Source: an uncultured Pseudomonadota bacterium (GTDB lineage: Bacteria; Pseudomonadota; Gammaproteobacteria; Steroidobacterales; Steroidobacteraceae). Taken from it: a DNA stretch of 64,000 bases. The stretch covers positions 18,139-82,138 of the forward strand of contig CAVVXG010000035.1 of the NCBI GenBank assembly GCA_963752125.1, read 5' to 3'. Within the stretch, counting starts at the first letter, position 1. Every line of letters starts with the position of its first letter. This document shows, piece by piece, positions 21,705 to 30,595 of the stretch. The notes beneath the pieces are model-generated. The model was given only the letters and a program-made list of their open reading frames with translations, did no database searches and was not told where the DNA came from. The translations under genes and the position numbers were made by a program.

Positions 21705-22136
21705 TCAGCTTTTTCTTCGCAGGCGGATGACGACGTCGATGCCGGCCACCTCGGTGCCCGGGGGAGGCGGGGGTAGGCGGCTGAATTCCACTTCCGGAAC
21801 GGGCACATCGATGAGGGCGCCCGTGCTCACGTCATGGAAGTGGTAGTGGGCGTCGACGTTGGAGTCAAACCAGGCGCGCGAGCCGTCGACCGAAAGCTGG
21901 CGAATCAGGCCACGCTCGGCAAAGAGGTTGAGCGTGTTGTAGACCGTGGCTTTGGAGACCCGCGCGCCTGCGGCACGGAGGCTGTCCAGAATCTGCTCCG
22001 CGGACAAATGCTGCGGTGCGGACAGCAGCAGTGCTGCAATACGCACTCGCTGGCCGGTCGGGCGGATACCGCAGTCCGACAGCCTACGTTCGCACTGGGA
22101 GGCGATGGACTCGCCTGACGGGGCCGAAAAATCCAT
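21705..22136 (-). CDS. Fur-family transcriptional regulator, Irr-like (no CxxC zinc motifs, HYHFH motif)
   Basis: 143 aa: ...RPTGQRVRIAALLLSAPQHLSAEQILDSL...VSKATVYNTLNLFAERGLI...FDSNVDAHYHFH. Winged-helix Fur fold signature without the C-terminal cysteine pairs. Confidence 0.8.
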   Translation of the reverse strand: MDFSAPSGESIASQCERRLSDCGIRPTGQRVRIAALLLSAPQHLSAEQILDSLRAAGARVSKATVYNTLNLFAERGLIRQLSVDGSRAWFDSNVDAHYHFHDVSTGALIDVPVPEVEFSRLPPPPPGTEVAGIDVVIRLRRKS

Positions 22137-22349
22137 GGTTCCTTGAGTGTAAGCGCATCTTTGCGTTGGAACTCGTCACTCTTGTACCGCCACCGGTGCC
22201 GAAAGGTCAATGCTGCAACCGCACGAAGTGACCGCACCATGGTCGAAGTGAGGTGAATTGGTAATAATATGTAAAATAAGTGCTCAGGAGTTCTATCCGC
22301 TGCGTGGCGCAGGGCACCATTGTGCGGCCGCGCCGGTTAAGCCTGCGGT

Positions 22350-24308
22350 TCAAAGCTTGCCTTGCAGATGCCTCGCCAGCTCCGCGATGGTCGGGAAGTC
22401 GAATAGTTCGGTGAGATCGACCAGCCCGGGATACTCGTGGTCGATGCGCTCGTGAATCTCAATCAGCTTCAACGAGCTGGCCCCCACCTCGAACAGATTG
22501 TCATTGACCCCGACACGCTTGCCTTCCATTGCCGTGTCGACAATCGTCTTCAACTTGTCTTCGATTGCAGACAGTGAGCCGGCTTCCGGGGCCGCGCCGT
22601 GCGCGGCGGCGCGTAACGCCGCCAGCTCCTTGAGCTCGGCGTCGAATTCGCCGTCGAGATAACTTTCCTCCAGCAGATGGCGTTGGATCTTGCCGCTGGT
22701 GGTCTTGGGGATGCGTTTAACAGGCACCACCGCGCCGACCTCGAGTCCCGTCTGCTCGTTGATGAGTCGGGCGACCTGGGTCGCGACGGCCAAGAACTCT
22801 GGCGCTCCACTGCGATGGAGCACGAACACGGTAAGTTGTTCTGTCTGTGAGTCGCGCGGCCGCACGCCGGCGGCCACCACTTTACCCAACTCGAGCCCTT
22901 CGACCCGCTGCGCGATCGTTTCGATGTCGTGCGGGTAGTAGTTCTGGCCGTTGACGAAAATGATTTCCTTGGCGCGCCCGGAGACGAACAGCTCCCCGTC
23001 ATGAAATAACCCGAGGTCGCCGGTGCGCACCCAGCCGTCGGCGGTGAACGCCGCCGCGTTGGCTTGGCTGTTCTCGAAATAACCGCCGGTGACGTTCTCG
23101 CCCGTGATCTGCACGTGCCCGATCCGATCTTGCGGCAGCGGCCGGTCGTCGTCGCCGGTTACCCGAATCTGACAGTAGGGGATGACTTTCCCTTCGCAGA
23201 TGAGCTCCACCGCATCCTTGTCGGACTTCGCGACCGGCTCGACCGGGCTGCCGACATTCAGGCGATGTCTGTTGAGGGTGAGCGTGCGCAGCGGCGCGCC
23301 AACTTGCGGGAAGGTCACCGCGAGTGAGGCCTCCGCCAGGCCATACACCGGGAACATGGCATTGCGCGCGAGTTTCGCCGGCGCAAGTCGCGTCAGGAAT
23401 TCGTCGCAAAGCTCGACCGAAATGGGCTCCGCGCCGTTGAAAATGAGCCGGGTCGCGGACAGATCGAGCCCCTCGAGCGGGCGCTCGCCCAACACCTTCA
23501 GATAGTGTTTGTAGCCGAAGTTGGGCGAGCACAGGATCGTCGCGCGTACCCGCGAGGCCAGTGTCAGCCACAGCAGGGGTCGCCGTACGAACAGCTCGGT
23601 CGGCATCAGGTGCGCATGCACCTGGCGCGAGAACATGATGATGTGAAAGCCGATCAGGCCCATGTCGTGAGTGAGGGGCATCCACGACAGGCTGACGTCC
23701 TCACTCGTGAGTTGCGCCGCCTGGCTGACGCCACGGCAGTTCGCAATGACATTGCTGTGGGTGAGAACAACTCCTTTCGGCTCGCTGGTCGAGCCCGAGG
23801 AGAACTGGATGAATGCAACATCCTGCGGCTTTGCCGCGTAGGTCTTGCCGGGGCGTGAGATGTCGTCGAGGTCGTCGACCAGGAAGGCCCGCGAGCGCAG
23901 CCCGTTGAACAATTCGGTCTCACCGACCTGGGCGGCGAAGGTCCCGATGCGATCGAGTGAGCGGCGCTCGGTGTAGATGAACGGGTTGCCGAGCTTGCGC
24001 GCTACGCGCAGCAGCTTATGGCGGTGCTCGTCGCTGATCCCCAGAGCGATGGGAACCGGCACGATGCCGCCGATGATGGCCGCCCAAAAGGCATCGATGA
24101 ACTGCTCGTTGTTGCCGAGGAACAGGATGAGTTTGTCACCGCGCTTGGCACCGATGCGCTGCAGGTGATAGAGGATGCCGAGCGCACGCTCGTGGAGCTC
24201 CGCGTAGGAGACCTCGCGCGAGTCATTCTCGCCTTCCAGATAGGTGATGCTCTTCGCAACGTTGCGGTTGGATTCGAACAGCTCGGTCAGGGTCGTGGCT
24301 TTCAACAT
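22350..24308 (-). CDS. Fatty acyl-AMP ligase (FAAL) fused to a C-terminal acyl/peptidyl carrier domain
   Basis: AMP-binding motifs FIQFSSGSTSEPKGVVLTH, MPLTHDMGLIG, ...GDLG..., ...PKTTSGKIQR. The C-terminal carrier domain has DNLFEVGASSLKLIE (Ser attachment site). Confidence 0.85.
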   Translation of the reverse strand: MLKATTLTELFESNRNVAKSITYLEGENDSREVSYAELHERALGILYHLQRIGAKRGDKLILFLGNNEQFIDAFWAAIIGGIVPVPIALGISDEHRHKLLRVARKLGNPFIYTERRSLDRIGTFAAQVGETELFNGLRSRAFLVDDLDDISRPGKTYAAKPQDVAFIQFSSGSTSEPKGVVLTHSNVIANCRGVSQAAQLTSEDVSLSWMPLTHDMGLIGFHIIMFSRQVHAHLMPTELFVRRPLLWLTLASRVRATILCSPNFGYKHYLKVLGERPLEGLDLSATRLIFNGAEPISVELCDEFLTRLAPAKLARNAMFPVYGLAEASLAVTFPQVGAPLRTLTLNRHRLNVGSPVEPVAKSDKDAVELICEGKVIPYCQIRVTGDDDRPLPQDRIGHVQITGENVTGGYFENSQANAAAFTADGWVRTGDLGLFHDGELFVSGRAKEIIFVNGQNYYPHDIETIAQRVEGLELGKVVAAGVRPRDSQTEQLTVFVLHRSGAPEFLAVATQVARLINEQTGLEVGAVVPVKRIPKTTSGKIQRHLLEESYLDGEFDAELKELAALRAAAHGAAPEAGSLSAIEDKLKTIVDTAMEGKRVGVNDNLFEVGASSLKLIEIHERIDHEYPGLVDLTELFDFPTIAELARHLQGKL

Positions 24309-25618
24309 CAGCGGCGTTCCAGCCTCATGTACAGTGGGTAACGGGTGCGCAGGTTGATCTGCGCCTCCAGCTCCAGCGGCCGCTCGGGCACGTGGACCAG
24401 GCGATAATGGCGAGCCACCTTGTACAGATGCACGAGCATCTCGTACAGCGCGAATGTCTCACCGATGCAGTGACGAGGGCCCGCCGCGAAGGGCATGTAA
24501 GCAAAGCGCGGGCGCTCCGCCTCGTGCTCCGGCGCGAATCGCTCGGGCCAGAAGCGGTCAGGATCTTTCCAGAACCGGCCATCCCGGTGCAAGAGATACA
24601 GTGGCAGCAGCACATTCGTTGCAGCCGGGACTTCGTAGCCGCCGAGCACATCGGCATCGATAGTGCGCCGCGAGAGGAGCCAGCCCGGCGGATAGAGCCG
24701 CAGCGCCTCGTTGACCACCTGCTGTGTGTAAGCGAGTGTTTCCATCTGTGCGAGGCTGGGGTTCGCCATGTCGGGGGCGGCATCGATTTCGGCGTGCAGG
24801 CGCGCTTCGACCTCGGGGCTCTGTGACAGGAGGTACCAGGTCCAATTCAGTGCGCTCGCGGTCGTCTCATGACCGGCCACCACCAGTGTCATGATTTCAT
24901 CGACGAGCTCGCGGTCATTCATCGGCGCGCCGGTTTCCTTGTCCCGGGCGCTCATGAGCATGGCGACGTAGTCGACATGCTCTGTGTTTTCGGCCCGGCG
25001 TCGCTCGATCAGGCCAGCCACGATCTTGGTCAGGGAGCGGAATTTGAACGCAAACTGCAGGTTGCGTTCCTGCTCCTTGGTCACAACCTCGAACGGGTTG
25101 CCGCCGAGTTGTTCCGACATGCGGTCCAGGTCGCGTCCGAAGATGGAGCGCAGCACGATGTTGAGCGTGAGCTCGCTCATCTCATCGGTGATGTTGATCG
25201 GGTTGCCGTGGCGGGCGAGCTCCTCCCAACGCGCGATGCACCGCTCGTTGGAGGAATCCAGCAACTGCGCGAATTCGCTGATGACACGGCGGTGGAAGAA
25301 CGGTTGCATCATGTAGCGCTGGCGTTTCCACATCTCGCCTTCGCTCGTCATGAGTCCCTTGCCGAGCAGGATCTTGACGCGATCGAGTCCCATCCCCTTG
25401 GTATAGTTGCGGTGGTTCGAAACCAGCACCCGCTTCACATCGTCGGGATGGTGGACTACATAGATGTGCGCCTTGCGCGCGGGCGAAAAGACGCGATAGG
25501 TGTCCCCGTAACGGCTGAACAGCTCGATCATGCGCTCCAGGGAGTCATCCGTGGCGCCAATGTCGAACTGAAGCTCCGCCTCGGGCGGTTGATTGGGGGT
25601 GGGCTCGCTGGCGGTCAT
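24308..25618 (-). CDS. Cytochrome P450
   Basis: Haem-ligand loop FAAGPRHCIGETFA, EALRLYPP (ExxR region), AGHETT I-helix. The stop overlaps the FAAL start (TGATG at 24310-24306). Start taken at ATG 25618 (MTASEPT...); the ORF track begins at TTG 25639. Confidence 0.9.
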   Translation of the reverse strand: MTASEPTPNQPPEAELQFDIGATDDSLERMIELFSRYGDTYRVFSPARKAHIYVVHHPDDVKRVLVSNHRNYTKGMGLDRVKILLGKGLMTSEGEMWKRQRYMMQPFFHRRVISEFAQLLDSSNERCIARWEELARHGNPINITDEMSELTLNIVLRSIFGRDLDRMSEQLGGNPFEVVTKEQERNLQFAFKFRSLTKIVAGLIERRRAENTEHVDYVAMLMSARDKETGAPMNDRELVDEIMTLVVAGHETTASALNWTWYLLSQSPEVEARLHAEIDAAPDMANPSLAQMETLAYTQQVVNEALRLYPPGWLLSRRTIDADVLGGYEVPAATNVLLPLYLLHRDGRFWKDPDRFWPERFAPEHEAERPRFAYMPFAAGPRHCIGETFALYEMLVHLYKVARHYRLVHVPERPLELEAQINLRTRYPLYMRLERR

Positions 25619-25637
25619 GCGCGGATTTGCCTGAATC

Positions 25638-25649
25638 AAATAGCTATTT
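25638..25649. promoter_or_regulatory. Perfect 12-bp palindrome AAATAGCTATTT about 20 nt upstream of the P450 ATG
   Basis: Read directly. It is an AT-rich dyad in an otherwise GC-rich divergent intergenic region (25619-25784). Confidence 0.3.
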
Positions 25650-25784
25650 TAGCTCACGTTTGCGCCTGATGGGCCTTTCAGCGGAAACTGCGCGCCCCTT
25701 GAAGAAGTTCGCTCTACCAAGCGGCGCCCGCACGAGCGTCGCCCCTTGCGGGATCCGCCGCGCCGGGATTTCCGCGCACCGCGC

Positions 25785-26525
25785 ATGAAAAACGACCGCA
25801 ATCTCCGCAACACCATCTACCGCACCCAAACCAGCTCCGGACGCCGCATGACGGTGGCCAGGCGGCTGCTTTACCGCATCGCTGTGCCTCTCGGGCTCGC
25901 GATCATCAAAGGCTGGCTGTCCACCTGTCGCGTGGTGCGCATCGAAGGCGAGCAACATCTGGACGAATCGCTCGCCAAAGCTGCCTCGCTGGTGCCGTGC
26001 TACTGGCACCAGCACCAGCTTTTCTGTGCGAGGTACCTCCTCGAGCAGCGCGCAAGAGGTCTAACCGTCGGTTGGCTCATCAGCCCGTCCGTCGATGGCG
26101 AGATCGGTGCGATGATGGTTCGGCGGCTCGGAGCCGTTGTGATTCGCGGCTCGTCGACGCATACGGGTGCGCGCGCGTTGCGCGACTACTATGAGGTGCT
26201 CGTGAAGGACGGCGTTTCGCCCATCATTACACCTGACGGCCCGCGGGGCCCGCGTTTCAAGTTCAAGATAGGCGCCATTCTGCTCGCCCAGATGTCAGGT
26301 CGGCCGATGTTGCCCATGGCTTATGCCGTCTCGCACGCATGGCTGGTCAAATGGGACAAGTTCGTCATCCCGGTGCCGTTCTCACGCGTTGTCATTGCTA
26401 TCGGTCCGCCACGGTACGTGCCACGAACGACTGACGCCGCGGCCATCGAGAGCCAGCAGGCTGCCATGGAGCAGGAGCTGAAACGCTTGTACCAACTTGC
26501 CAGGGACACCCTGGAAAAGCGCTGA
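25785..26525 (+). CDS. Lysophospholipid acyltransferase-family protein (DUF374 type)
   Basis: ...ISPSVDGEIGAMMVRRLGAVVIRGSSTHTGARAL...ITPDGPRGPRFKFK... Start uncertain (ATG 25785 or 25848). Confidence 0.7.
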   Translation: MKNDRNLRNTIYRTQTSSGRRMTVARRLLYRIAVPLGLAIIKGWLSTCRVVRIEGEQHLDESLAKAASLVPCYWHQHQLFCARYLLEQRARGLTVGWLISPSVDGEIGAMMVRRLGAVVIRGSSTHTGARALRDYYEVLVKDGVSPIITPDGPRGPRFKFKIGAILLAQMSGRPMLPMAYAVSHAWLVKWDKFVIPVPFSRVVIAIGPPRYVPRTTDAAAIESQQAAMEQELKRLYQLARDTLEKR

Positions 26526-27619
26526 TGTCAGCTCAAGGCCCACTCACTCCTCCAACGGCTCGCGCCGCCGAAGCTCGCCCCCTGGTCATGCGTTGTGGTG
26601 CTTTTGGGGACATCGTGCTGTTGACGGTGCTACTGCGGCAGCTGCATCTGCGTTTCGGCAAGCCGGTCGATGTCATTTCCTCCGGTCCTTGGACCCAACC
26701 ACTGCTCGAGGCCGAGCGGGCTGTTGGTCGTTTGTTCATCCTGCGCAGCCGCCGCACCCCTTATTGGTTGAGTGTGCAACAACGGCGCCTGGTGGCCTGG
26801 CTCCGCGAGCGCGGCAGCGGGCCTACATGGTTCGCCGATCGCGGCGAGGGACGCCGGCTGCTGGCGCTGGCGGGCATTCCCGACGATTACATCTGCGATA
26901 CGAACACCTATCAGTGGACACCCGGGGAAACGTTTGCCGACCGTTATCTGCGCTTCGGCAGCTACACCCCCAAGGCGTTTGAGGGACTCCTGCCGGCCGC
27001 AAAACCAGGGATACCGCGCGCCGCGCGCCTCAACATCCCTCCTACGGCGCGGCATGAGCTCGAATCGTGGCTGGCCGAACGCGGGTTTGCGGGCAGGCAG
27101 TTCGTGATGATCCATCCTGGCAGCCGTCATCTGGCCCGTCGCTGGCTGCGCTCGCGCTCCGGAGCCAGCAAATATTGGCCGGAGGATCGTTGGGCGCGTG
27201 TTGTCAGAGCTGTACGCGACAGCTGCCCGGAACACATCATTCTGTTCACGGGCACCCGAGCCGAAAGACACTTCAACGCTGACATCATCCGCCAGGCCGC
27301 GGTGGCGGATGCTCACAACATCGCGGACCGTTTGTCGGTACGCACGCTTTTGCCGCTGCTGGAGCGTGCGCACAGCATGATCTGCGTGGATACCGGACCG
27401 GCGCATGCTGCTGCCGCACTCGGGTGTCCGACGGTCGCGCTCTTTGGGACAGCAAGCCCGGATCTTTACCGGCCGGGAGGGGCTACTACGCCGGCAGTCG
27501 CACTGACCGGCTCGGTGAACGGGCAGCAGAACATTCTCGGGATCGAGGCAGAGAGGGTCATCGATACCTGGCGACAGCTGTCGCAGACCGGTCGGGTACC
27601 GTCGGCCGATTTAAGTTAA
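26525..27619 (+). CDS. Glycosyltransferase family 9 (heptosyltransferase-like)
   Basis: ATG overlaps the preceding stop by 1 nt. ...MRCGAFGDIVLLT...IHPGSRH...CVDTGPAHAAAALGCPTVALFG, typical GT9 motifs. Confidence 0.8.
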   Translation: MSAQGPLTPPTARAAEARPLVMRCGAFGDIVLLTVLLRQLHLRFGKPVDVISSGPWTQPLLEAERAVGRLFILRSRRTPYWLSVQQRRLVAWLRERGSGPTWFADRGEGRRLLALAGIPDDYICDTNTYQWTPGETFADRYLRFGSYTPKAFEGLLPAAKPGIPRAARLNIPPTARHELESWLAERGFAGRQFVMIHPGSRHLARRWLRSRSGASKYWPEDRWARVVRAVRDSCPEHIILFTGTRAERHFNADIIRQAAVADAHNIADRLSVRTLLPLLERAHSMICVDTGPAHAAAALGCPTVALFGTASPDLYRPGGATTPAVALTGSVNGQQNILGIEAERVIDTWRQLSQTGRVPSADLS

Positions 27620-27916
27620 GTCGCTAATTCGAGATTGAACAGCACGTTAGCTTGTGTTCTTGATTAAGTGTTGCCAGAATCGGACGTAACTTCCGGACTG
27701 ATGCGAAAGAAGAAGCCGTGGGCTTGCGGCCGCGCGAGGGGGTTTTGCACCCGCTCTCGATTTCGTCAAAGGTCCTGACGGTTACAGAAAAAACACGCAG
27801 TTCTAAGGTCCCAAGGTGTGTCCGCAGGACGGAAATCACGTTCGGGCAGACCCAAGTCGGATAGGCTGGACCATCACGGTCTGCGACTGACGATTCTTTG
27901 GAGAGGTCAGGGATCA

Positions 27917-30595
27917 ATGTCGATTCTGCCGCCGGATAAGCCAGCGGAATTTACCGCTTCGGACATCCTTTCGGCAGACGCCTGGAGTGGCAGAGCCCCC
28001 AGGCCGGTTCTGGGTATCGATGTCGCGTGCACGAAAATCGCGGTCGATTTCCAGAACATGCGCCGAGAAACGGTTGATGAATGCGTGCGGCGCAATTTGG
28101 AATTGCTGCGTGATGCGACGGGCAGCGATTGCGCTTTTCTGATTGCGTTCAGTCCGAACGAACTCCTTGTCGAGGACGTGCAGCTCGCGCGGAGCGCTTT
28201 TGCCCAATGCCGGCCCGAAGGCCTCAAAGATGCCCACTTCGACAACTTTCCATGGCTGAAGGGGCGCCTCGAGCACCTGCGCCTGTCGGAGCTGCGCGAT
28301 ACCAGCACACCGCGTAAGGAGCAGGCCGCCGAAGGCCAGCGCTTTGCGGAATTGCAGATGGGATCCGCCTTGCTCGTCGCCATGCGCGTGCAGGGCAAGC
28401 CGGCCGGCTTCCTGGGGTTGGCGCAGACCATGCCGCGCGGCGCCTGGGATGTGAATCTGCAATTGCTGATGAAACTCATCGGCACCAGCCTCGCGACCGG
28501 TCTTGAGCGCATCCGCATTGAGACCCGTCTGGCAAAGCTCGAGGAGCGCACCAATCTTGCCCAGGCCGCCGCCAACGATGGCCTGTGGGACTTCGATGTC
28601 GAGAGCAACGAGGTCTACTTCTCGCCGCGTTGGAAGACCATGCTGGGGTACGGCGACGACGATATGCGCGGCTCGCCTGACTGGCGCAGTTTGGTGCATC
28701 CGGACGACCTGTCGCGTGTGCAGGCGGCTATTCGCGATCACGTCGCGGGCAAGACACCGATTTTCGAAAGCACGCACCGCATGCGTCACCGCAATGGCGA
28801 GTGGCGTTGGGTCGTAAGCCGCGCCACGGCGCGTGTGGACAAGCACGGTAGGCTGTTGCGGCTGGTGGGCGTCGAGCTCGACGTCACCGAGCGGAAGTTG
28901 TACGAGGAGGCGCTGTTCCGTGAAAAGGAGAGCGCCCAGATCACCTTGCAGTCGATCGGCGACGGGGTCATCACCACCGATGCCAACTCGACCATCGATT
29001 ACATCAATCCGGTCGCCGAGGAGCTGACCGGCTGGCGTCTGGAGGATGCCATGGGGCGGCCGGTGGAGGAGATCTTCCGCGCCTTCCATGAGGAGACTTG
29101 CGAGCCGCTGGAGAACCCGCTGAGCGTCTCCATCCGGCGCATCCGTCCGATCAAGTCCGTACGCCCGATGCTCCTCATCCGCCGCGACGGCAACGAGCTG
29201 TACGTCGAGAGCACCGCCGCTCCGATCCGCGACGGCGCCGGGCATGTGGCCGGCGGCGTGTTGGTGTTCCACGATGTCAGCGAGTCGCGCGAGCTCAATC
29301 GCCGCTTGTCCTATCATGCCAGCCATGACTTGCTGACCGGGCTGGTGAATCGCCGCGAGTTCGAAAGCCGCCTGGAGCGTGCGTTGAAGAGCGCCAAGGC
29401 GCGCGAGGCTTCCTACGCTCTGTGTTATCTCGACATCGACCAGTTCAAGATCGTCAATGACACGTGCGGTCACAGCGCCGGCGATGCGCTGCTGGGGCAG
29501 GTCGGCGCGCTGTTGAAGTCCAAAGTGCGCTGGCGCGATACGTTATCGCGCCTGGGCGGGGACGAGTTCGGCATTCTGTTGGAAAGCTGCTCGCTGGATG
29601 ACGCGATGCGCACGGCGGAAACGTTGCGTGAGAGCGTGCGAAATTTCCGCTTTACCTGGGAGGATCGTGTGTTCCGCCTCGGGGCGAGCATTGGCGTGGT
29701 GCCGATTTCCGCCGACAACGAGGACGTGGCATCGATTCTGTCGGCGGCCGACAGCGCCTGCCAGGCCGCCAAGGAGGGCGGTCGCAACCGCGTGCATAGT
29801 TTCGCGGAAAACGACATCGAGCTGATGCGCCGCCGCCGCGAGATGCAATGGGCCGCGCGCATCAATCCGCCTTGGAGGAGGGGCGTTTCGAGCTCTTCCG
29901 CATGGCCATCCAACCGCTGCAGCGGGTGGAGGGCGGGGCGCACTACGAGTTGCTGTTGCGCTTGAAAGACGAGACCGGGCGCATCGTCTCGCCGAATGAT
30001 TTCATTGCCGCCGCCGAGCGCTACGGCATCACCCCGGCGATCGATCGCTGGGTCATTGAGAACGCCTTTCGCTGGCTGGTGTCGGAAGCGGACGAGCGCG
30101 AGAAGCTGTTGATGTGCTCCATCAACCTGTCGGGCCAGAGCCTGGGCGACGATAAATTCCTGCCGTTCGTCATCGACCAGTTCCATCGCAGCGGACTTGG
30201 ATGCCAGGAAGATCTGCTTCGAGATCACGGAGACGGCCGCCGTCGCCAGCTTCTCGCAAGCAAACCGTTTCATTCAGGCGCTCAAGGAGCTGGGTTGCAA
30301 GTTCGCGCTGGACGACTTCGGCACCGGTCTGTCCTCGTTCGGTTACCTCAAGCACTTCCCGGTCGATTTCCTGAAGATCGACGGCAGTTTCGTCCGCGAG
30401 ATCTTGCGCGATCCGATCGATCGCGAGATGGTGCGCTCGATCAACGAGATCGGACACCTGACCGGTAAGCAGACGATCGCGGAGTTCGCGGAGAACGCCG
30501 AAATCATCCAGATGCTGACCAGCCTTGGGGTGGACTATGCCCAGGGTTATGGGGTTGCTCAGCCGCAGCGCGTCCTGAAGTCCGCTGTAGCGTAA
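27917..30595 (+). pseudogene. GAF/PAS-GGDEF-EAL signalling protein, reading frame broken twice (about 29867 and about 30199)
   Basis: ATG 27917 follows GGAGAGG. GGDEF motif RLGGDEFGILL. The EAL domain continues in frame 1 (..ALEEGRFELFRMAIQPL..YELLLRL..) and returns to frame 2 (..DARKICFEITETAAV...DDFGTG...KIDGSF..). Confidence 0.8.

What the first reader, a model, noticed from the sequence alone, without database searches (positions are those of the whole stretch)
21705..27619. Orphan lipid-tailoring cluster: P450 + FAAL-carrier protein operon divergent from a DUF374 acyltransferase + GT9 glycosyltransferase pair, flanked by an Irr-like regulator
On the minus strand a cytochrome P450 is translationally coupled (TGATG) to a fatty acyl-AMP ligase with its own C-terminal carrier domain. 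That enzyme activates a fatty acid and holds it as a thioester. There is no PKS, NRPS or thioesterase in the window to receive it. Divergently, with a 1-nt stop/start overlap, lie a lysophospholipid-acyltransferase-family (DUF374) protein and a family-9 glycosyltransferase; both families normally act on lipid A or core-type glycolipid acceptors. Inference: the four genes could hydroxylate a fatty acid, activate it, and transfer it onto a glycosylated envelope lipid. That would be a remodelling pathway not described as such. A haem-sensor-type Fur paralog (Irr-like, HYHFH, no CxxC) sits 213 nt downstream of the haem-enzyme operon.
Basis: inference. Interest (0 to 1): 0.6.

Follow-up and report, generated by a model that had tools for sequence, protein, structure and literature searches.

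The report
Private fatty-acid donor for lipid A acylation
A soil gammaproteobacterium (Steroidobacteraceae) carries a conserved gene set (a P450, a fatty-acid-activating enzyme with its own carrier domain, and an LpxJ-type membrane acyltransferase) that probably attaches an oxidised fatty acid to the outer-membrane lipid A, a route I did not find described in the searchable literature and that no experiment has tested.

Summary
The five genes and both TGATG overlaps are at the stated coordinates. The organism is a Steroidobacteraceae MAG (Gammaproteobacteria).

**Conserved core.** The core is DUF374 divergent from P450 and FAAL-ACP.
- It is present in essentially every genome of the genus and in Woeseiaceae, Thioalkalispiraceae, Granulosicoccaceae, Endozoicomonas and others.
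- In relatives it also carries an Sfp-type PPTase and a divergent LpxL-family acyltransferase.
- Of 59 assessable loci with a FAAL orthologue, 53 have a DUF374 or LpxL-type gene within 4.5 kb.
- FAAL-linked DUF374 proteins form one clade (support 100/99). They keep the LpxJ catalytic residues, and the model's best PDB fold match is lipid A acyltransferase LpxM.

**Peripheral genes.**
- The GT9 is accessory. It occurs in 8 of 25 genus genomes, always directly after DUF374, and nowhere outside the genus.
- The Irr-like regulator is a single-copy gene found across the order, including genomes without the module, so no specific link is supported.

**Reading.** FAAL-ACP loads a fatty acid, the P450 oxidises it, and the LpxJ-like enzyme transfers it to lipid A. 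This resembles AlmEFG or AcpXL/LpxXL. The acceptor and the chemistry are inferred. I found no description of it in the searchable papers. I rate it a new variant of a known kind.

The parts
22350..24308 (-). FAAL-ACP didomain protein (652 aa). It adenylates a carboxylic (fatty) acid and loads it on its own C-terminal phosphopantetheine carrier domain.
   Evidence: Pfam AMP-binding 162.7 bits plus PP-binding 40.6 bits. The best NCBIfam models are FAAL families. The nearest solved structures are the McyG A-PCP didomain 4r0m, the FAALs 3kxw and 3pbk, and FadD32. The carrier serines S611/S612 are invariant in 10 orthologues. Orthologues at 44-80% identity occur across Gammaproteobacteria.
24308..25618 (-). 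Cytochrome P450 (436 aa from the ATG at 25618), translationally coupled to the FAAL-ACP gene (TGATG). Presumed oxidase of the acyl chain.
   Evidence: Pfam p450 261.9 bits. The sequence shows the AGHETT, ExxR and FAAGPRHCIG haem-thiolate motifs. The nearest solved structures are E-class P450s: CYP97A3/C1, CYP3A4, CYP4B1 and CYP102. It sits directly upstream of the FAAL gene in most loci.
25619..25784 (.). 166-bp divergent control region. A -10-like TAAAAT (25646-25651, minus strand) lies about 28 nt before the P450 ATG and overlaps the palindrome at 25638-25649.
   Evidence: Sequence. A TAnAAT/TAAGAT element at the same distance is present in most of the other ten genus loci compared. The palindrome itself is not conserved.
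25785..26525 (+). DUF374 / LpxJ-family membrane acyltransferase (246 aa from the ATG at 25785). Presumed transferase that takes the acyl group from the FAAL-ACP carrier.
   Evidence: PF04028 69.7 bits. The only DUF374 in the genome. The LpxJ critical residues are present: W87-H88, D117, D164 and W203-D204 in numbering from the TTG ORF start. The AlphaFold2 model has pLDDT 91.6, and its best PDB folds are LpxM 5knk/5kn7, then PlsC and PatA. It belongs to the FAAL-linked clade (100/99 support).
26525..27619 (+). Divergent GT9 (heptosyltransferase-family) glycosyltransferase, translationally coupled to DUF374. An accessory, genus-specific add-on.
   Evidence: PF01075 70.6 bits, but far below all equivalog cut-offs (WaaC/F/Q). 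The only PDB hits are the LPS heptosyltransferases WaaF 1psw and WaaC 2gt1/2h1f/6dfe. Orthologues occur in 8 of 25 genus genomes, 8 of 8 directly after DUF374, and none outside the genus.
21705..22136 (-). Irr-like Fur-family regulator, 213 nt downstream of FAAL-ACP. A syntenic neighbour, not shown to belong to the module.
   Evidence: PF01475 72.3 bits. NCBIfam IrrA 145.6 bits (cut-off 150) and Irr 136.9 bits (cut-off 170). Adjacent to the locus across the family. The orthologue is single copy in 37 of 41 genomes of the order, including genomes without the module.

Best explanation
The core of the finding is a conserved three-gene module, not a four-gene one.

Proposed steps:
1. The FAAL domain adenylates a free fatty (or other carboxylic) acid and thioesterifies it to the phosphopantetheine arm of its own C-terminal carrier domain. 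This keeps the acid out of the CoA and housekeeping ACP pools.
2. The translationally coupled P450 oxidises the chain, most simply by hydroxylating it. This happens either before loading or, as I think slightly more likely, while the chain is on the carrier.
3. The DUF374 protein, a membrane-anchored LpxJ-type acyltransferase encoded divergently from a shared short promoter region, uses this private acyl-carrier as donor. It transfers the chain to a hydroxyl of lipid A or a Kdo-lipid A precursor at the cytoplasmic face of the inner membrane, as a secondary ('late') acylation.

In relatives the locus also encodes an Sfp-type PPTase that would make the carrier domain holo, and a second, divergent LpxL-family acyltransferase. 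In this genome the PPTase is absent from the locus. The LpxL-like gene has been separated from it by a ~21.5 kb insertion.

The GT9 glycosyltransferase coupled to DUF374 here is a genus-specific accessory. It probably adds a sugar to the same LPS precursor.

Shown: gene content, couplings, co-conservation, clade structure, catalytic residues and fold.

Inferred: donor-acceptor pairing, lipid A as acceptor, hydroxylation as the P450 chemistry, and the order of steps.
For: 1. Co-conservation.
- The triad is present in about 20 genus loci at 66-80% identity, and in other families of the order at 36-51%.
- It is also present in Woeseiaceae, Thioalkalispiraceae, Granulosicoccaceae, Endozoicomonas and Salinisphaera.
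- Of 81 unique loci with a FAAL orthologue at 44% identity or more, 68 have DUF374 or an LpxL-type gene within 4.5 kb. Among loci with enough flank the figure is 53 of 59.

2. Phyletic coupling.
- In 41 relatives, DUF374 occurs in genomes that have the FAAL orthologue and is absent from those that lack it. Two draft assemblies, G018 and G038, are apparent exceptions.
- In 301 sampled Gammaproteobacteria, 10 of 15 FAAL-positive genomes have DUF374 (9 adjacent), against 31 of 286 FAAL-negative genomes.
- Four of the five FAAL-positive, DUF374-negative genomes have an LpxL-type gene within 1 kb of the FAAL gene instead.

3. Two different lipid A late-acyltransferase families (PF04028 and PF03279, 106-144 bits) alternate or co-occur next to the same FAAL-ACP.

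4. DUF374 tree. The FAAL-linked proteins form one clade (100/99): 58 linked rows plus 3 others. One of those three lies 6.7 kb from a FAAL gene and two are coupled to a PPTase. DUF374 proteins that fall outside this clade are only 26-36% identical.

5. LpxJ features.
- The only characterised DUF374 members are lipid A 3'-secondary acyltransferases, with critical W60, H61, D86, D132, W172 and D173 (PMC6148475).
- The window protein has all six.
- Its model (pLDDT 91.6) matches LpxM best, then PlsC and PatA.

6. An Sfp-type PPTase sits inside the locus in many relatives. This argues that the carrier domain is the functional centre.

7. Tailoring enzyme varies. Some P450-less variants have an FAD-dependent halogenase-like gene directly after the FAAL-ACP gene (L058). 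This enzyme class, from general knowledge, typically works on carrier-bound substrates.

8. GT9. Its only solved relatives are LPS heptosyltransferases. Wherever its orthologue exists, it sits directly after DUF374 (8 of 8).

9. Precedent. AlmEFG uses a ligase, a carrier protein and a lipid A-modifying transferase (AlmG) to modify lipid A (PMC4278540).
Against: - No biochemical or lipid-structure data exist for any organism with the module. All carriers found are MAGs or uncharacterised isolates.
- Gene neighbourhood cannot identify the acceptor. The LPLAT fold is shared with PlsC, GPAT and PatA, and PF03279 also contains the PIM acyltransferase PatA.
- Neither the FAAL, the LpxL-like protein nor the GT9 reaches any NCBIfam equivalog cut-off.
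- The nearest FAAL structure, McyG, loads a phenylpropanoid, so the substrate need not be a plain fatty acid (the substrate is my own knowledge).
- No redox partner for the P450 is encoded nearby.
- The P450 is dispensable in several lineages.
- No PPTase of any kind was detected in this 68%-complete MAG, so holo-carrier formation here cannot be verified.
- No transcript data were found.
Confidence: 0.55

Rival explanations
1. Aas-like membrane phospholipid repair or remodelling. The FAAL-ACP captures free fatty acids and the DUF374/LPLAT enzyme re-acylates lysophospholipids, or another glycerolipid or aminolipid such as lyso-ornithine lipid, rather than lipid A.
For: - DUF374 belongs to the LPLAT superfamily. 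The model also matches PlsC and GPAT, and the only PDB sequence hit is PlsC 5kym.
- FAAL fusions with lysophospholipid acyltransferase domains are recorded in bacteria (PMC8460268 and PMC12820801).
- E. coli Aas combines acyl-ACP synthetase and LPLAT activities (my own knowledge).
Against: - The partner families are specifically the two lipid A late-acyltransferase families, PF04028 and PF03279, not PF01553.
- The top fold match is LpxM.
- The LpxJ critical residues are kept.
- A GT9 LPS-type glycosyltransferase is coupled to DUF374 in 8 genomes.
- A dedicated P450 or halogenase is hard to reconcile with simple repair.
Confidence: 0.15
2. The oxidised acyl chain is the acceptor, not only the donor. 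The P450-introduced hydroxyl on the carrier-bound chain is O-acylated, or glycosylated by the GT9. This would give an acyloxyacyl (estolide-like) or glycosylated fatty acyl unit, which is then attached to an envelope lipid or released as a surfactant-like lipid.
For: - Late lipid A acyltransferases by definition acylate a hydroxyl on an acyl chain (PMC6148475).
- Many loci carry two acyltransferases, DUF374 and LpxL-like, around one carrier.
- GT9 or GT2 genes follow in some variants.
Against: - No thioesterase or release enzyme is conserved in the locus.
- The minimal conserved unit has a single acyltransferase, and the P450 is optional.
- There is no direct evidence for this chemistry.
Confidence: 0.12
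3. The FAAL-ACP is a lipoinitiation module that feeds a PKS or NRPS encoded elsewhere in the genome, and the acyltransferase neighbours are coincidental.
For: - Bacterial FAALs are described as typically occurring in PKS/NRPS contexts (PMC8460268).
- Homologues at 42% identity or less in Lysinibacillus, Paenibacillus and Cohnella are NRPS loading modules with a type II thioesterase nearby.
Against: - None of the loci with a FAAL orthologue at 44% identity or more that I annotated carries a detected condensation or ketosynthase gene. 53 of 59 assessable loci carry a lipid A-type acyltransferase instead.
- The DUF374 clade is specific to FAAL/PPTase linkage.
- No megasynthase ORF is in the window.
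Confidence: 0.04
4. The Irr-like regulator controls the module in response to haem or iron, because the operon encodes a haem enzyme.
For: - The Irr gene lies 18-700 nt downstream of FAAL-ACP in most genus genomes.
- It stays near the locus, beside the LpxL-like gene, in other Steroidobacteraceae.
Against: - The Irr orthologue is single copy in 37 of 41 genomes of the order, including at least 8 that lack the module. It therefore behaves as a general regulator.
- It is not near the module outside the family.
- The only dyad in the promoter region is not conserved.
Confidence: 0.15

Closest known systems
LpxJ (DUF374) lipid A 3'-secondary acyltransferases of Helicobacter, Campylobacter, Wolinella and Rickettsia (PMC6148475)
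   Same: - Same Pfam family (PF04028).
- The six residues shown to be critical in Rickettsia typhi LpxJ are present: WH, D, D and WD.
- Predicted LPLAT fold, with LpxM as the best structural match.
- Single N-terminal membrane helix.
   Different: - The window protein belongs to a separate, strongly supported clade. That clade is tied to a FAAL-ACP and/or an Sfp-type PPTase and is only 26-36% identical to gammaproteobacterial DUF374 proteins outside it.
- Characterised LpxJ enzymes use housekeeping acyl-ACP.
- No characterised LpxJ sequence was in my tree, and no activity is known for this clade.
Vibrio cholerae AlmEFG lipid A glycine modification (PMC4278540)
   Same: Same logic: an adenylate-forming ligase loads a dedicated phosphopantetheinyl carrier, and a lipid A-modifying transferase (AlmG) moves the group onto lipid A.
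   Different: - The cargo here is a fatty or carboxylic acid handled by a FAAL, not glycine handled by a DltA-like ligase.
- The carrier is fused to the ligase.
- The transferase is LpxJ-type, and/or a divergent LpxL-type.
- A P450 tailors the cargo.
AcpXL / LpxXL very-long-chain acylation of lipid A in Rhizobiales (my own knowledge; not retrieved here)
   Same: A dedicated acyl carrier protein supplies a special, (omega-1)-hydroxylated secondary acyl chain to a specialised late acyltransferase of lipid A.
   Different: - In rhizobia the chain is built de novo on AcpXL by dedicated FAS enzymes, and the hydroxyl does not come from a P450.
- Here a free acid is recruited by adenylation and oxidised by a P450. 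No elongation genes are conserved.
E. coli Aas (acyl-ACP synthetase / 2-acyl-GPE acyltransferase; my own knowledge) and FAAL-LPLAT fusions noted in PMC8460268 and PMC12820801
   Same: An adenylating enzyme, a carrier and an LPLAT-superfamily acyltransferase are used to put a free fatty acid onto a membrane lipid.
   Different: - Aas uses a PF01553 acyltransferase domain and housekeeping ACP, and acts on lysophospholipid.
- It has no P450, no own carrier domain and no lipid A-type transferase.
P450 BioI (CYP107H1) and other P450s acting on carrier-protein-bound substrates (my own knowledge)
   Same: A P450 encoded with, and possibly acting on, an acyl chain tethered to a carrier protein.
   Different: The window P450 is an E-class enzyme, nearest to CYP97, CYP3A, CYP4B and CYP102, and is not a CYP107 relative. 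Its substrate and regiochemistry are unknown.

Membership tests
LpxJ / DUF374 lipid A late acyltransferase | Match to PF04028 above the gathering score | tested here: met
   69.7 bits against a 26.8 cut-off. It is the only DUF374 in the genome.
LpxJ / DUF374 lipid A late acyltransferase | Residues shown critical in Rickettsia typhi LpxJ: W60, H61, D86, D132, W172, D173 (PMC6148475) | tested here: met
   The window protein has W87-H88, D117 (SVDG), D164 (TPDGPRGP) and W203-D204, with matching spacing. The residues equivalent to H61, D132, W172 and D173 are invariant, and the one equivalent to W60 is at least 90% conserved, in 41 sequences. The correspondence comes from motif and spacing, not from an alignment with the R. 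typhi sequence itself.
LpxJ / DUF374 lipid A late acyltransferase | LPLAT-superfamily fold | tested here: met
   AlphaFold2 model with pLDDT 91.6 and pTM 0.88. Foldseek top hits are LpxM 5knk/5kn7 (E 3e-6), PlsC 5kym, GPAT 1iuq and PatA 5f2z, with TM about 0.5.
LpxJ / DUF374 lipid A late acyltransferase | [quoted passage not shown] | not testable with these tools
   Needs complementation of an E. coli lpxM mutant, or an in vitro assay.
LpxJ / DUF374 lipid A late acyltransferase | Orthology with the characterised enzymes | tested here: inconclusive
   The FAAL-linked proteins form their own clade (100/99), separate from the gammaproteobacterial DUF374 proteins that lack such a link. No characterised LpxJ sequence was available for the tree.
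Fatty acyl-AMP ligase (FAAL) | AMP-binding domain whose closest relatives are FAALs rather than acyl-CoA ligases | tested here: met
   The top NCBIfam model is PRK09192 'fatty acyl-AMP ligase' at 370 bits. FadD32, FadD21, FadD28 and MbtM models follow, and all are below their curated cut-offs. The closest PDB entries are the McyG A-PCP didomain, the FAALs 3kxw and 3pbk, and FadD32.
Fatty acyl-AMP ligase (FAAL) | FAAL-specific insertion that blocks CoA use | not tested
   I made no alignment against acyl-CoA ligases to locate the insertion.
Fatty acyl-AMP ligase (FAAL) | Hands the acyl group to a phosphopantetheinyl carrier | tested here: met
   A fused PP-binding domain scores 40.6 bits at residues 594-648. 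The serines are invariant in orthologues. Loading itself has not been tested.
Fatty acyl-AMP ligase (FAAL) | Genomic context with PKS/NRPS, as described for typical bacterial FAALs (PMC8460268) | tested here: not met
   No PKS/NRPS was found in the window or among the orthologue loci I annotated. Only homologues at 42% identity or less are NRPS modules.
Cytochrome P450 | PF00067 match and the haem-thiolate motif FxxGxRxCxG | tested here: met
   261.9 bits. FAAGPRHCIG, AGHETT and ExxR are visible in the translation.
GT9 LPS heptosyltransferase (WaaC/WaaF/WaaQ) | PF01075 match above the gathering score | tested here: met
   70.6 bits against a 22 cut-off, though only the C-terminal half aligns. 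The only PDB sequence hits are WaaF and WaaC.
GT9 LPS heptosyltransferase (WaaC/WaaF/WaaQ) | Reaches the equivalog score of a named heptosyltransferase | tested here: not met
   The best is heptosyltransferase III at 65.3 bits against 170.2, with all others lower. Paralogues at 31-38% identity elsewhere in the genomes are the likelier WaaC/WaaF.
Irr (haem-responsive Fur-family regulator) | Reaches the NCBIfam equivalog cut-off for Irr or IrrA | tested here: not met
   IrrA scores 145.6 against 150 and Irr 136.9 against 170. It is close but below, so I call it Irr-like.
LpxL/LpxM family (PF03279): the partner gene at G000 C35:12406-13251, outside the window | PF03279 match and the HX4D/E motif | tested here: met
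   PF03279 scores 120 bits. HQCNWE is present in the translation. All the best NCBIfam hits are lipid A late acyltransferases, but at 104 bits or less against cut-offs of 248 or more. It is therefore a divergent paralogue. The canonical LpxL in relatives scores about 240 bits.

The most novel reading that the evidence does not exclude
The module is a previously unrecognised branch of lipid A assembly, widespread in environmental Gammaproteobacteria. In it, a free (possibly scavenged) fatty acid is captured by a FAAL-ACP. The P450-installed hydroxyl then serves as a handle for a third-tier substituent. That substituent would be an acyl group from the LpxL-like paralogue or, in this genus, a sugar from the coupled GT9. 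The result would be a lipid A with a branched or glycosylated secondary chain. The closest analogy is the substituted (omega-1)-hydroxy very-long-chain acids of rhizobia, reached here by an unrelated route.
Probability: 0.15. Interest if true: 0.8.

Novelty: new variant of a known kind. Interest (0 to 1): 0.6.

Why it matters
- **Lipid A biology.** Lipid A acylation determines outer-membrane permeability, resistance to cationic peptides and recognition by innate immunity. All known late acylations draw on the housekeeping acyl-ACP pool or, in rhizobia, on a dedicated FAS-loaded ACP. A route that recruits a free fatty acid by adenylation, oxidises it and installs it through its own carrier would be a third way of diversifying lipid A.
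- **FAAL biology.** It would give FAALs a role in primary envelope biogenesis, outside PKS/NRPS natural-product synthesis, which is where the reviews retrieved here place them.
- **DUF374 annotation.** It would split the DUF374 family into housekeeping LpxJ enzymes and a carrier-linked clade.
- **Testability.** The cassette is small (3-5 genes) and could be tested directly in E. coli late-acyltransferase mutants.

Tried and rejected
1. Four-gene pathway including GT9. Rejected as the core, because the GT9 orthologue is in only 8 of 25 genus genomes and in none outside the genus.
2. Irr as a module-specific regulator. Not supported by its distribution.
3. The palindrome AAATAGCTATTT as an operator. 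The conserved feature is a -10-like hexamer, and the dyad is not conserved.
4. Phyletic complementarity between DUF374 and the number of PF03279 copies. No clean pattern: genus genomes have a canonical LpxL (about 240 bits) plus the locus paralogue (about 120 bits) plus a weak third hit.
5. A PPTase elsewhere in this genome. None was found by tblastn or by PF01648. The MAG is 68% complete and even AcpS is missing, so this is uninformative.
6. Transcript evidence. Only three soil or unlabelled runs, none identified as RNA, hold 5-8% of the sampled words, so I did not pursue it.
7. Literature search for a described FAAL / lipid A link. Searches for DUF374, LpxJ, FAAL with lipid A or LPS, and three FAAL surveys found none. 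Subscription-only papers are not covered.
8. The 385-aa ORF in the P450 position of L076, and ORFs next to the FAAL gene in L077 and L084, have no Pfam match. They may be spurious or novel.
9. NCBIfam gave no hit for DUF374.

Full report
**Observation.**
- Pfam and NCBIfam give these assignments:
  - 21705-22136(-): a Fur-family protein closest to IrrA/Irr
  - 22350-24308(-): an AMP-binding enzyme with a C-terminal PP-binding domain, whose best models are fatty acyl-AMP ligases
  - 24308-25639(-): a cytochrome P450
  - 25746-26525(+): a DUF374 protein
  - 26525-27619(+): a family-9 glycosyltransferase
- Both junctions read TGATG with a one-base overlap.
- Comparison with relatives moves two starts. 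The P450 begins at the ATG at 25618 and DUF374 at the ATG at 25785, leaving a 166-bp divergent spacer.
- None of the window's ORFs of 600 aa or more is a PKS or NRPS.

**Organism.** Named relatives of the FAAL-ACP locus are Steroidobacteraceae MAGs, so the window comes from a gammaproteobacterium. Its own assembly is a 68%-complete MAG.

**What is conserved.**
- I fetched 20 loci from relatives, 80 named loci and 39 more from a class-wide sample.
- The unit DUF374(-) | P450(+) FAAL-ACP(+) is present in essentially every genome of the genus at 66-80% identity.
- It is also present in other families of the order at 36-51% identity, and in Woeseiaceae, Thioalkalispiraceae, Granulosicoccaceae, Endozoicomonas and Salinisphaera.
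- Clustering the neighbouring ORFs showed two further recurrent partners:
  - A ~220-aa Sfp-type phosphopantetheinyl transferase lies between DUF374 and the P450. Its ACPS hits are around 31 bits and pass the cut-off in three of the five examples scanned.
  - A ~300-aa PF03279 'lipid A biosynthesis acyltransferase' (106-144 bits) is usually convergent with the FAAL gene.
- Among 81 unique loci with a FAAL orthologue at 44% identity or more, 68 have DUF374 or the LpxL-type gene within 4.5 kb. Among loci with enough flank the figure is 53 of 59.
- Homologues at 42% identity or less in Firmicutes are NRPS loading modules with a type II thioesterase nearby. The refutation criterion 'found next to a PKS/NRPS elsewhere' therefore applies only to distant paralogues.

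**Phyletic coupling.**
- In 41 relatives, DUF374 is single copy in all but three genomes and is found only where the FAAL orthologue is found. Two draft assemblies are apparent exceptions.
- In 301 sampled Gammaproteobacteria, DUF374 occurs in 41 genomes and the FAAL orthologue (E < 1e-160) in 15.
  - Ten of the 15 have DUF374, nine of them adjacent to the FAAL gene.
  - Four of the other five have an LpxL-type gene within 1 kb of the FAAL gene, and another lies at a contig end.
- A maximum-likelihood tree of 88 DUF374 proteins puts all 58 FAAL-linked ones in one clade with 100/99 support.
  - Three others fall in the same clade.
  - One of these lies 6.7 kb from its FAAL gene, and two are coupled to a PPTase.
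  - The gammaproteobacterial DUF374 proteins outside this clade are 26-36% identical to the window's.

**The acyltransferase.**
- The only characterised DUF374 proteins are LpxJ enzymes, which add the 3'-secondary acyl chain of lipid A (PMC6148475).
- That study found W60, H61, D86, D132, W172 and D173 to be essential.
- The window protein has W87-H88, D117, D164 and W203-D204 with matching spacing, and most of these are invariant in my alignment.
- An AlphaFold2 model (pLDDT 91.6) matches the lipid A secondary acyltransferase LpxM best, followed by PlsC, GPAT and PatA.
- This establishes an LPLAT-fold acyltransferase of the LpxJ family. It does not establish the acceptor.

**The other proteins.**
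- The FAAL-ACP is closest to the McyG A-PCP didomain and to stand-alone FAALs. Its carrier serines are invariant.
- The P450 is an E-class enzyme, nearest to CYP97, CYP3A, CYP4B and CYP102, and has the standard haem-thiolate motif. No redox partner is nearby.
- The P450 is missing in several lineages. In one P450-less variant an FAD-dependent halogenase-like gene directly follows the FAAL-ACP gene (L058). The tailoring step therefore varies while ligase-carrier plus acyltransferase is the constant.

**This window's peculiarities.**
- The locus lacks the PPTase, and none was found in the incomplete MAG.
- The LpxL-like paralogue lies at C35:12406-13251, preceded by RND and membrane-fusion genes.
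  - In relatives the order is FAAL, Irr, MFP, RND, LpxL-like within 8 kb.
  - Window positions 1-21700 therefore look like a ~21.5 kb insertion into the ancestral locus. According to earlier first-stage notes, this stretch holds the LysR-regulated uptake cluster, a second TonB receptor, vapBC and tRNA-Thr.
- The GT9 orthologue (62-70% identity) exists in 8 of 25 genus genomes, always immediately after DUF374, and nowhere outside the genus. Other genomes have only 31-38% paralogues elsewhere.
  - Its only solved relatives are the LPS heptosyltransferases WaaF and WaaC, but it reaches no equivalog cut-off.
  - I read it as an accessory LPS-type glycosyltransferase recruited to the module. This is a further, weak pointer to LPS as the target.
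- The Irr-like gene stays near the locus across the family. Its orthologue is single copy in 37 of 41 genomes of the order, including those without the module, so it looks like a general regulator.
- The palindrome upstream of the P450 overlaps a -10-like TAAAAT. That hexamer is conserved in position in most of the genus loci compared, whereas the dyad is not.

**Mechanism proposed.**
1. The FAAL domain adenylates a free fatty acid and loads it on its own carrier.
2. The coupled P450 oxidises the chain, before or after loading.
3. The LpxJ-type enzyme transfers it from the private carrier to lipid A or a Kdo-lipid A precursor at the inner face of the inner membrane.
4. Where present, the LpxL-like paralogue adds or uses a second chain, and the GT9 adds a sugar.

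Only gene content, linkage, clade structure, residues and fold are shown. Every catalytic step is inferred.

**Rivals.**
- Aas-like acylation of lysophospholipid or another membrane lipid.
- A scheme in which the hydroxylated chain is itself the acceptor.
- A remote PKS/NRPS.

**Comparison with the known.**
- The logic matches AlmEFG of Vibrio cholerae, in which a ligase, a carrier and a lipid A-modifying transferase (AlmG) add glycine to lipid A (PMC4278540).
- From my own knowledge it also matches AcpXL/LpxXL of rhizobia and E. coli Aas.
- It differs in using a FAAL fused to its carrier, a P450, and an LpxJ-type transferase.
- Surveys of FAALs describe typical bacterial FAALs as lying in PKS/NRPS contexts. 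They mention fusions with lysophospholipid acyltransferases but not lipid A enzymes (PMC8460268, PMC12820801, PMC11837247).
- Searches for DUF374, LpxJ and FAAL with lipid A found no description of this module.
- Earlier agents of this scan reached the same reading on other genomes. I saw those notes after my own analysis, and they are not independent evidence.

**Verdict.** This is a new variant of a known kind, carrier-protein-dependent lipid A modification. Confidence is 0.55 for the lipid A reading, and about 0.8 that the three genes form one carrier-dependent lipid acylation unit.

Noticed in passing
window 1-21700 and G000 C35:12406-17720 (left of the window): In relatives the order FAAL, Irr, MFP, RND, LpxL-like is contiguous. 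Here the MFP-RND-LpxL-like genes lie just outside the window's left end, and about 21.5 kb separate them from Irr. According to earlier first-stage notes, that stretch holds the LysR/TonB-receptor cluster, vapBC and tRNA-Thr. It looks like an island inserted beside the tRNA gene.
   Followed up: partly
G000 C35:13379-16419 (outside the window): The RND transporter gene aligns to its orthologue in three pieces with abutting or overlapping coordinates. This suggests frameshifts or assembly errors.
   Followed up: no
window 25638-25651: The palindrome AAATAGCTATTT overlaps a -10-like TAAAAT on the minus strand. A TAnAAT/TAAGAT hexamer sits at the same distance (about 25-35 nt) before the P450 ATG in most of the other ten genus loci compared. 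The dyad symmetry is not conserved, so this is more likely a promoter element than an operator.
   Followed up: yes
window 21705-22136: An Irr-like Fur paralogue is single copy in 37 of 41 sampled genomes of this gammaproteobacterial order, although Irr is regarded as an alphaproteobacterial regulator (my own knowledge). It scores just under the IrrA equivalog cut-off.
   Followed up: partly
L058:10029-12688: In a P450-less variant of the module, an FAD-dependent halogenase-like gene (Trp_halogenase/FAD_binding_3) directly follows the FAAL-ACP gene, with a GT2 glycosyltransferase about 0.45 kb further downstream. This is an alternative tailoring set.
   Followed up: partly
L122:3798-5161 and L133:3646-5153: DUF374 proteins of the FAAL-linked clade are coupled to an Sfp-type PPTase in genomes where no FAAL orthologue (E < 1e-90) was found. 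This implies another, unidentified carrier partner.
   Followed up: partly
L042:1872-4170; L090:10022-11298; L026: L042 has two tandem P450 hits and L090 (Endozoicomonas) has two tandem DUF374 genes after the FAAL gene. One genus genome (G024) has a second FAAL-ACP copy at 65% identity with none of the partners.
   Followed up: no
L076:6487-7644: A 385-aa ORF with no Pfam match occupies the position of the P450, between the PPTase and the FAAL-ACP gene. It may be a spurious ORF or an unknown tailoring enzyme.
   Followed up: no
window 27818-30273: The PAS-GGDEF gene next to the GT9 is a conserved neighbour of DUF374 throughout the genus (80-95% identity). A 267-aa antisense ORF overlapping its 3' part is equally 'conserved' and is probably an artefact of that overlap.
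   Followed up: no
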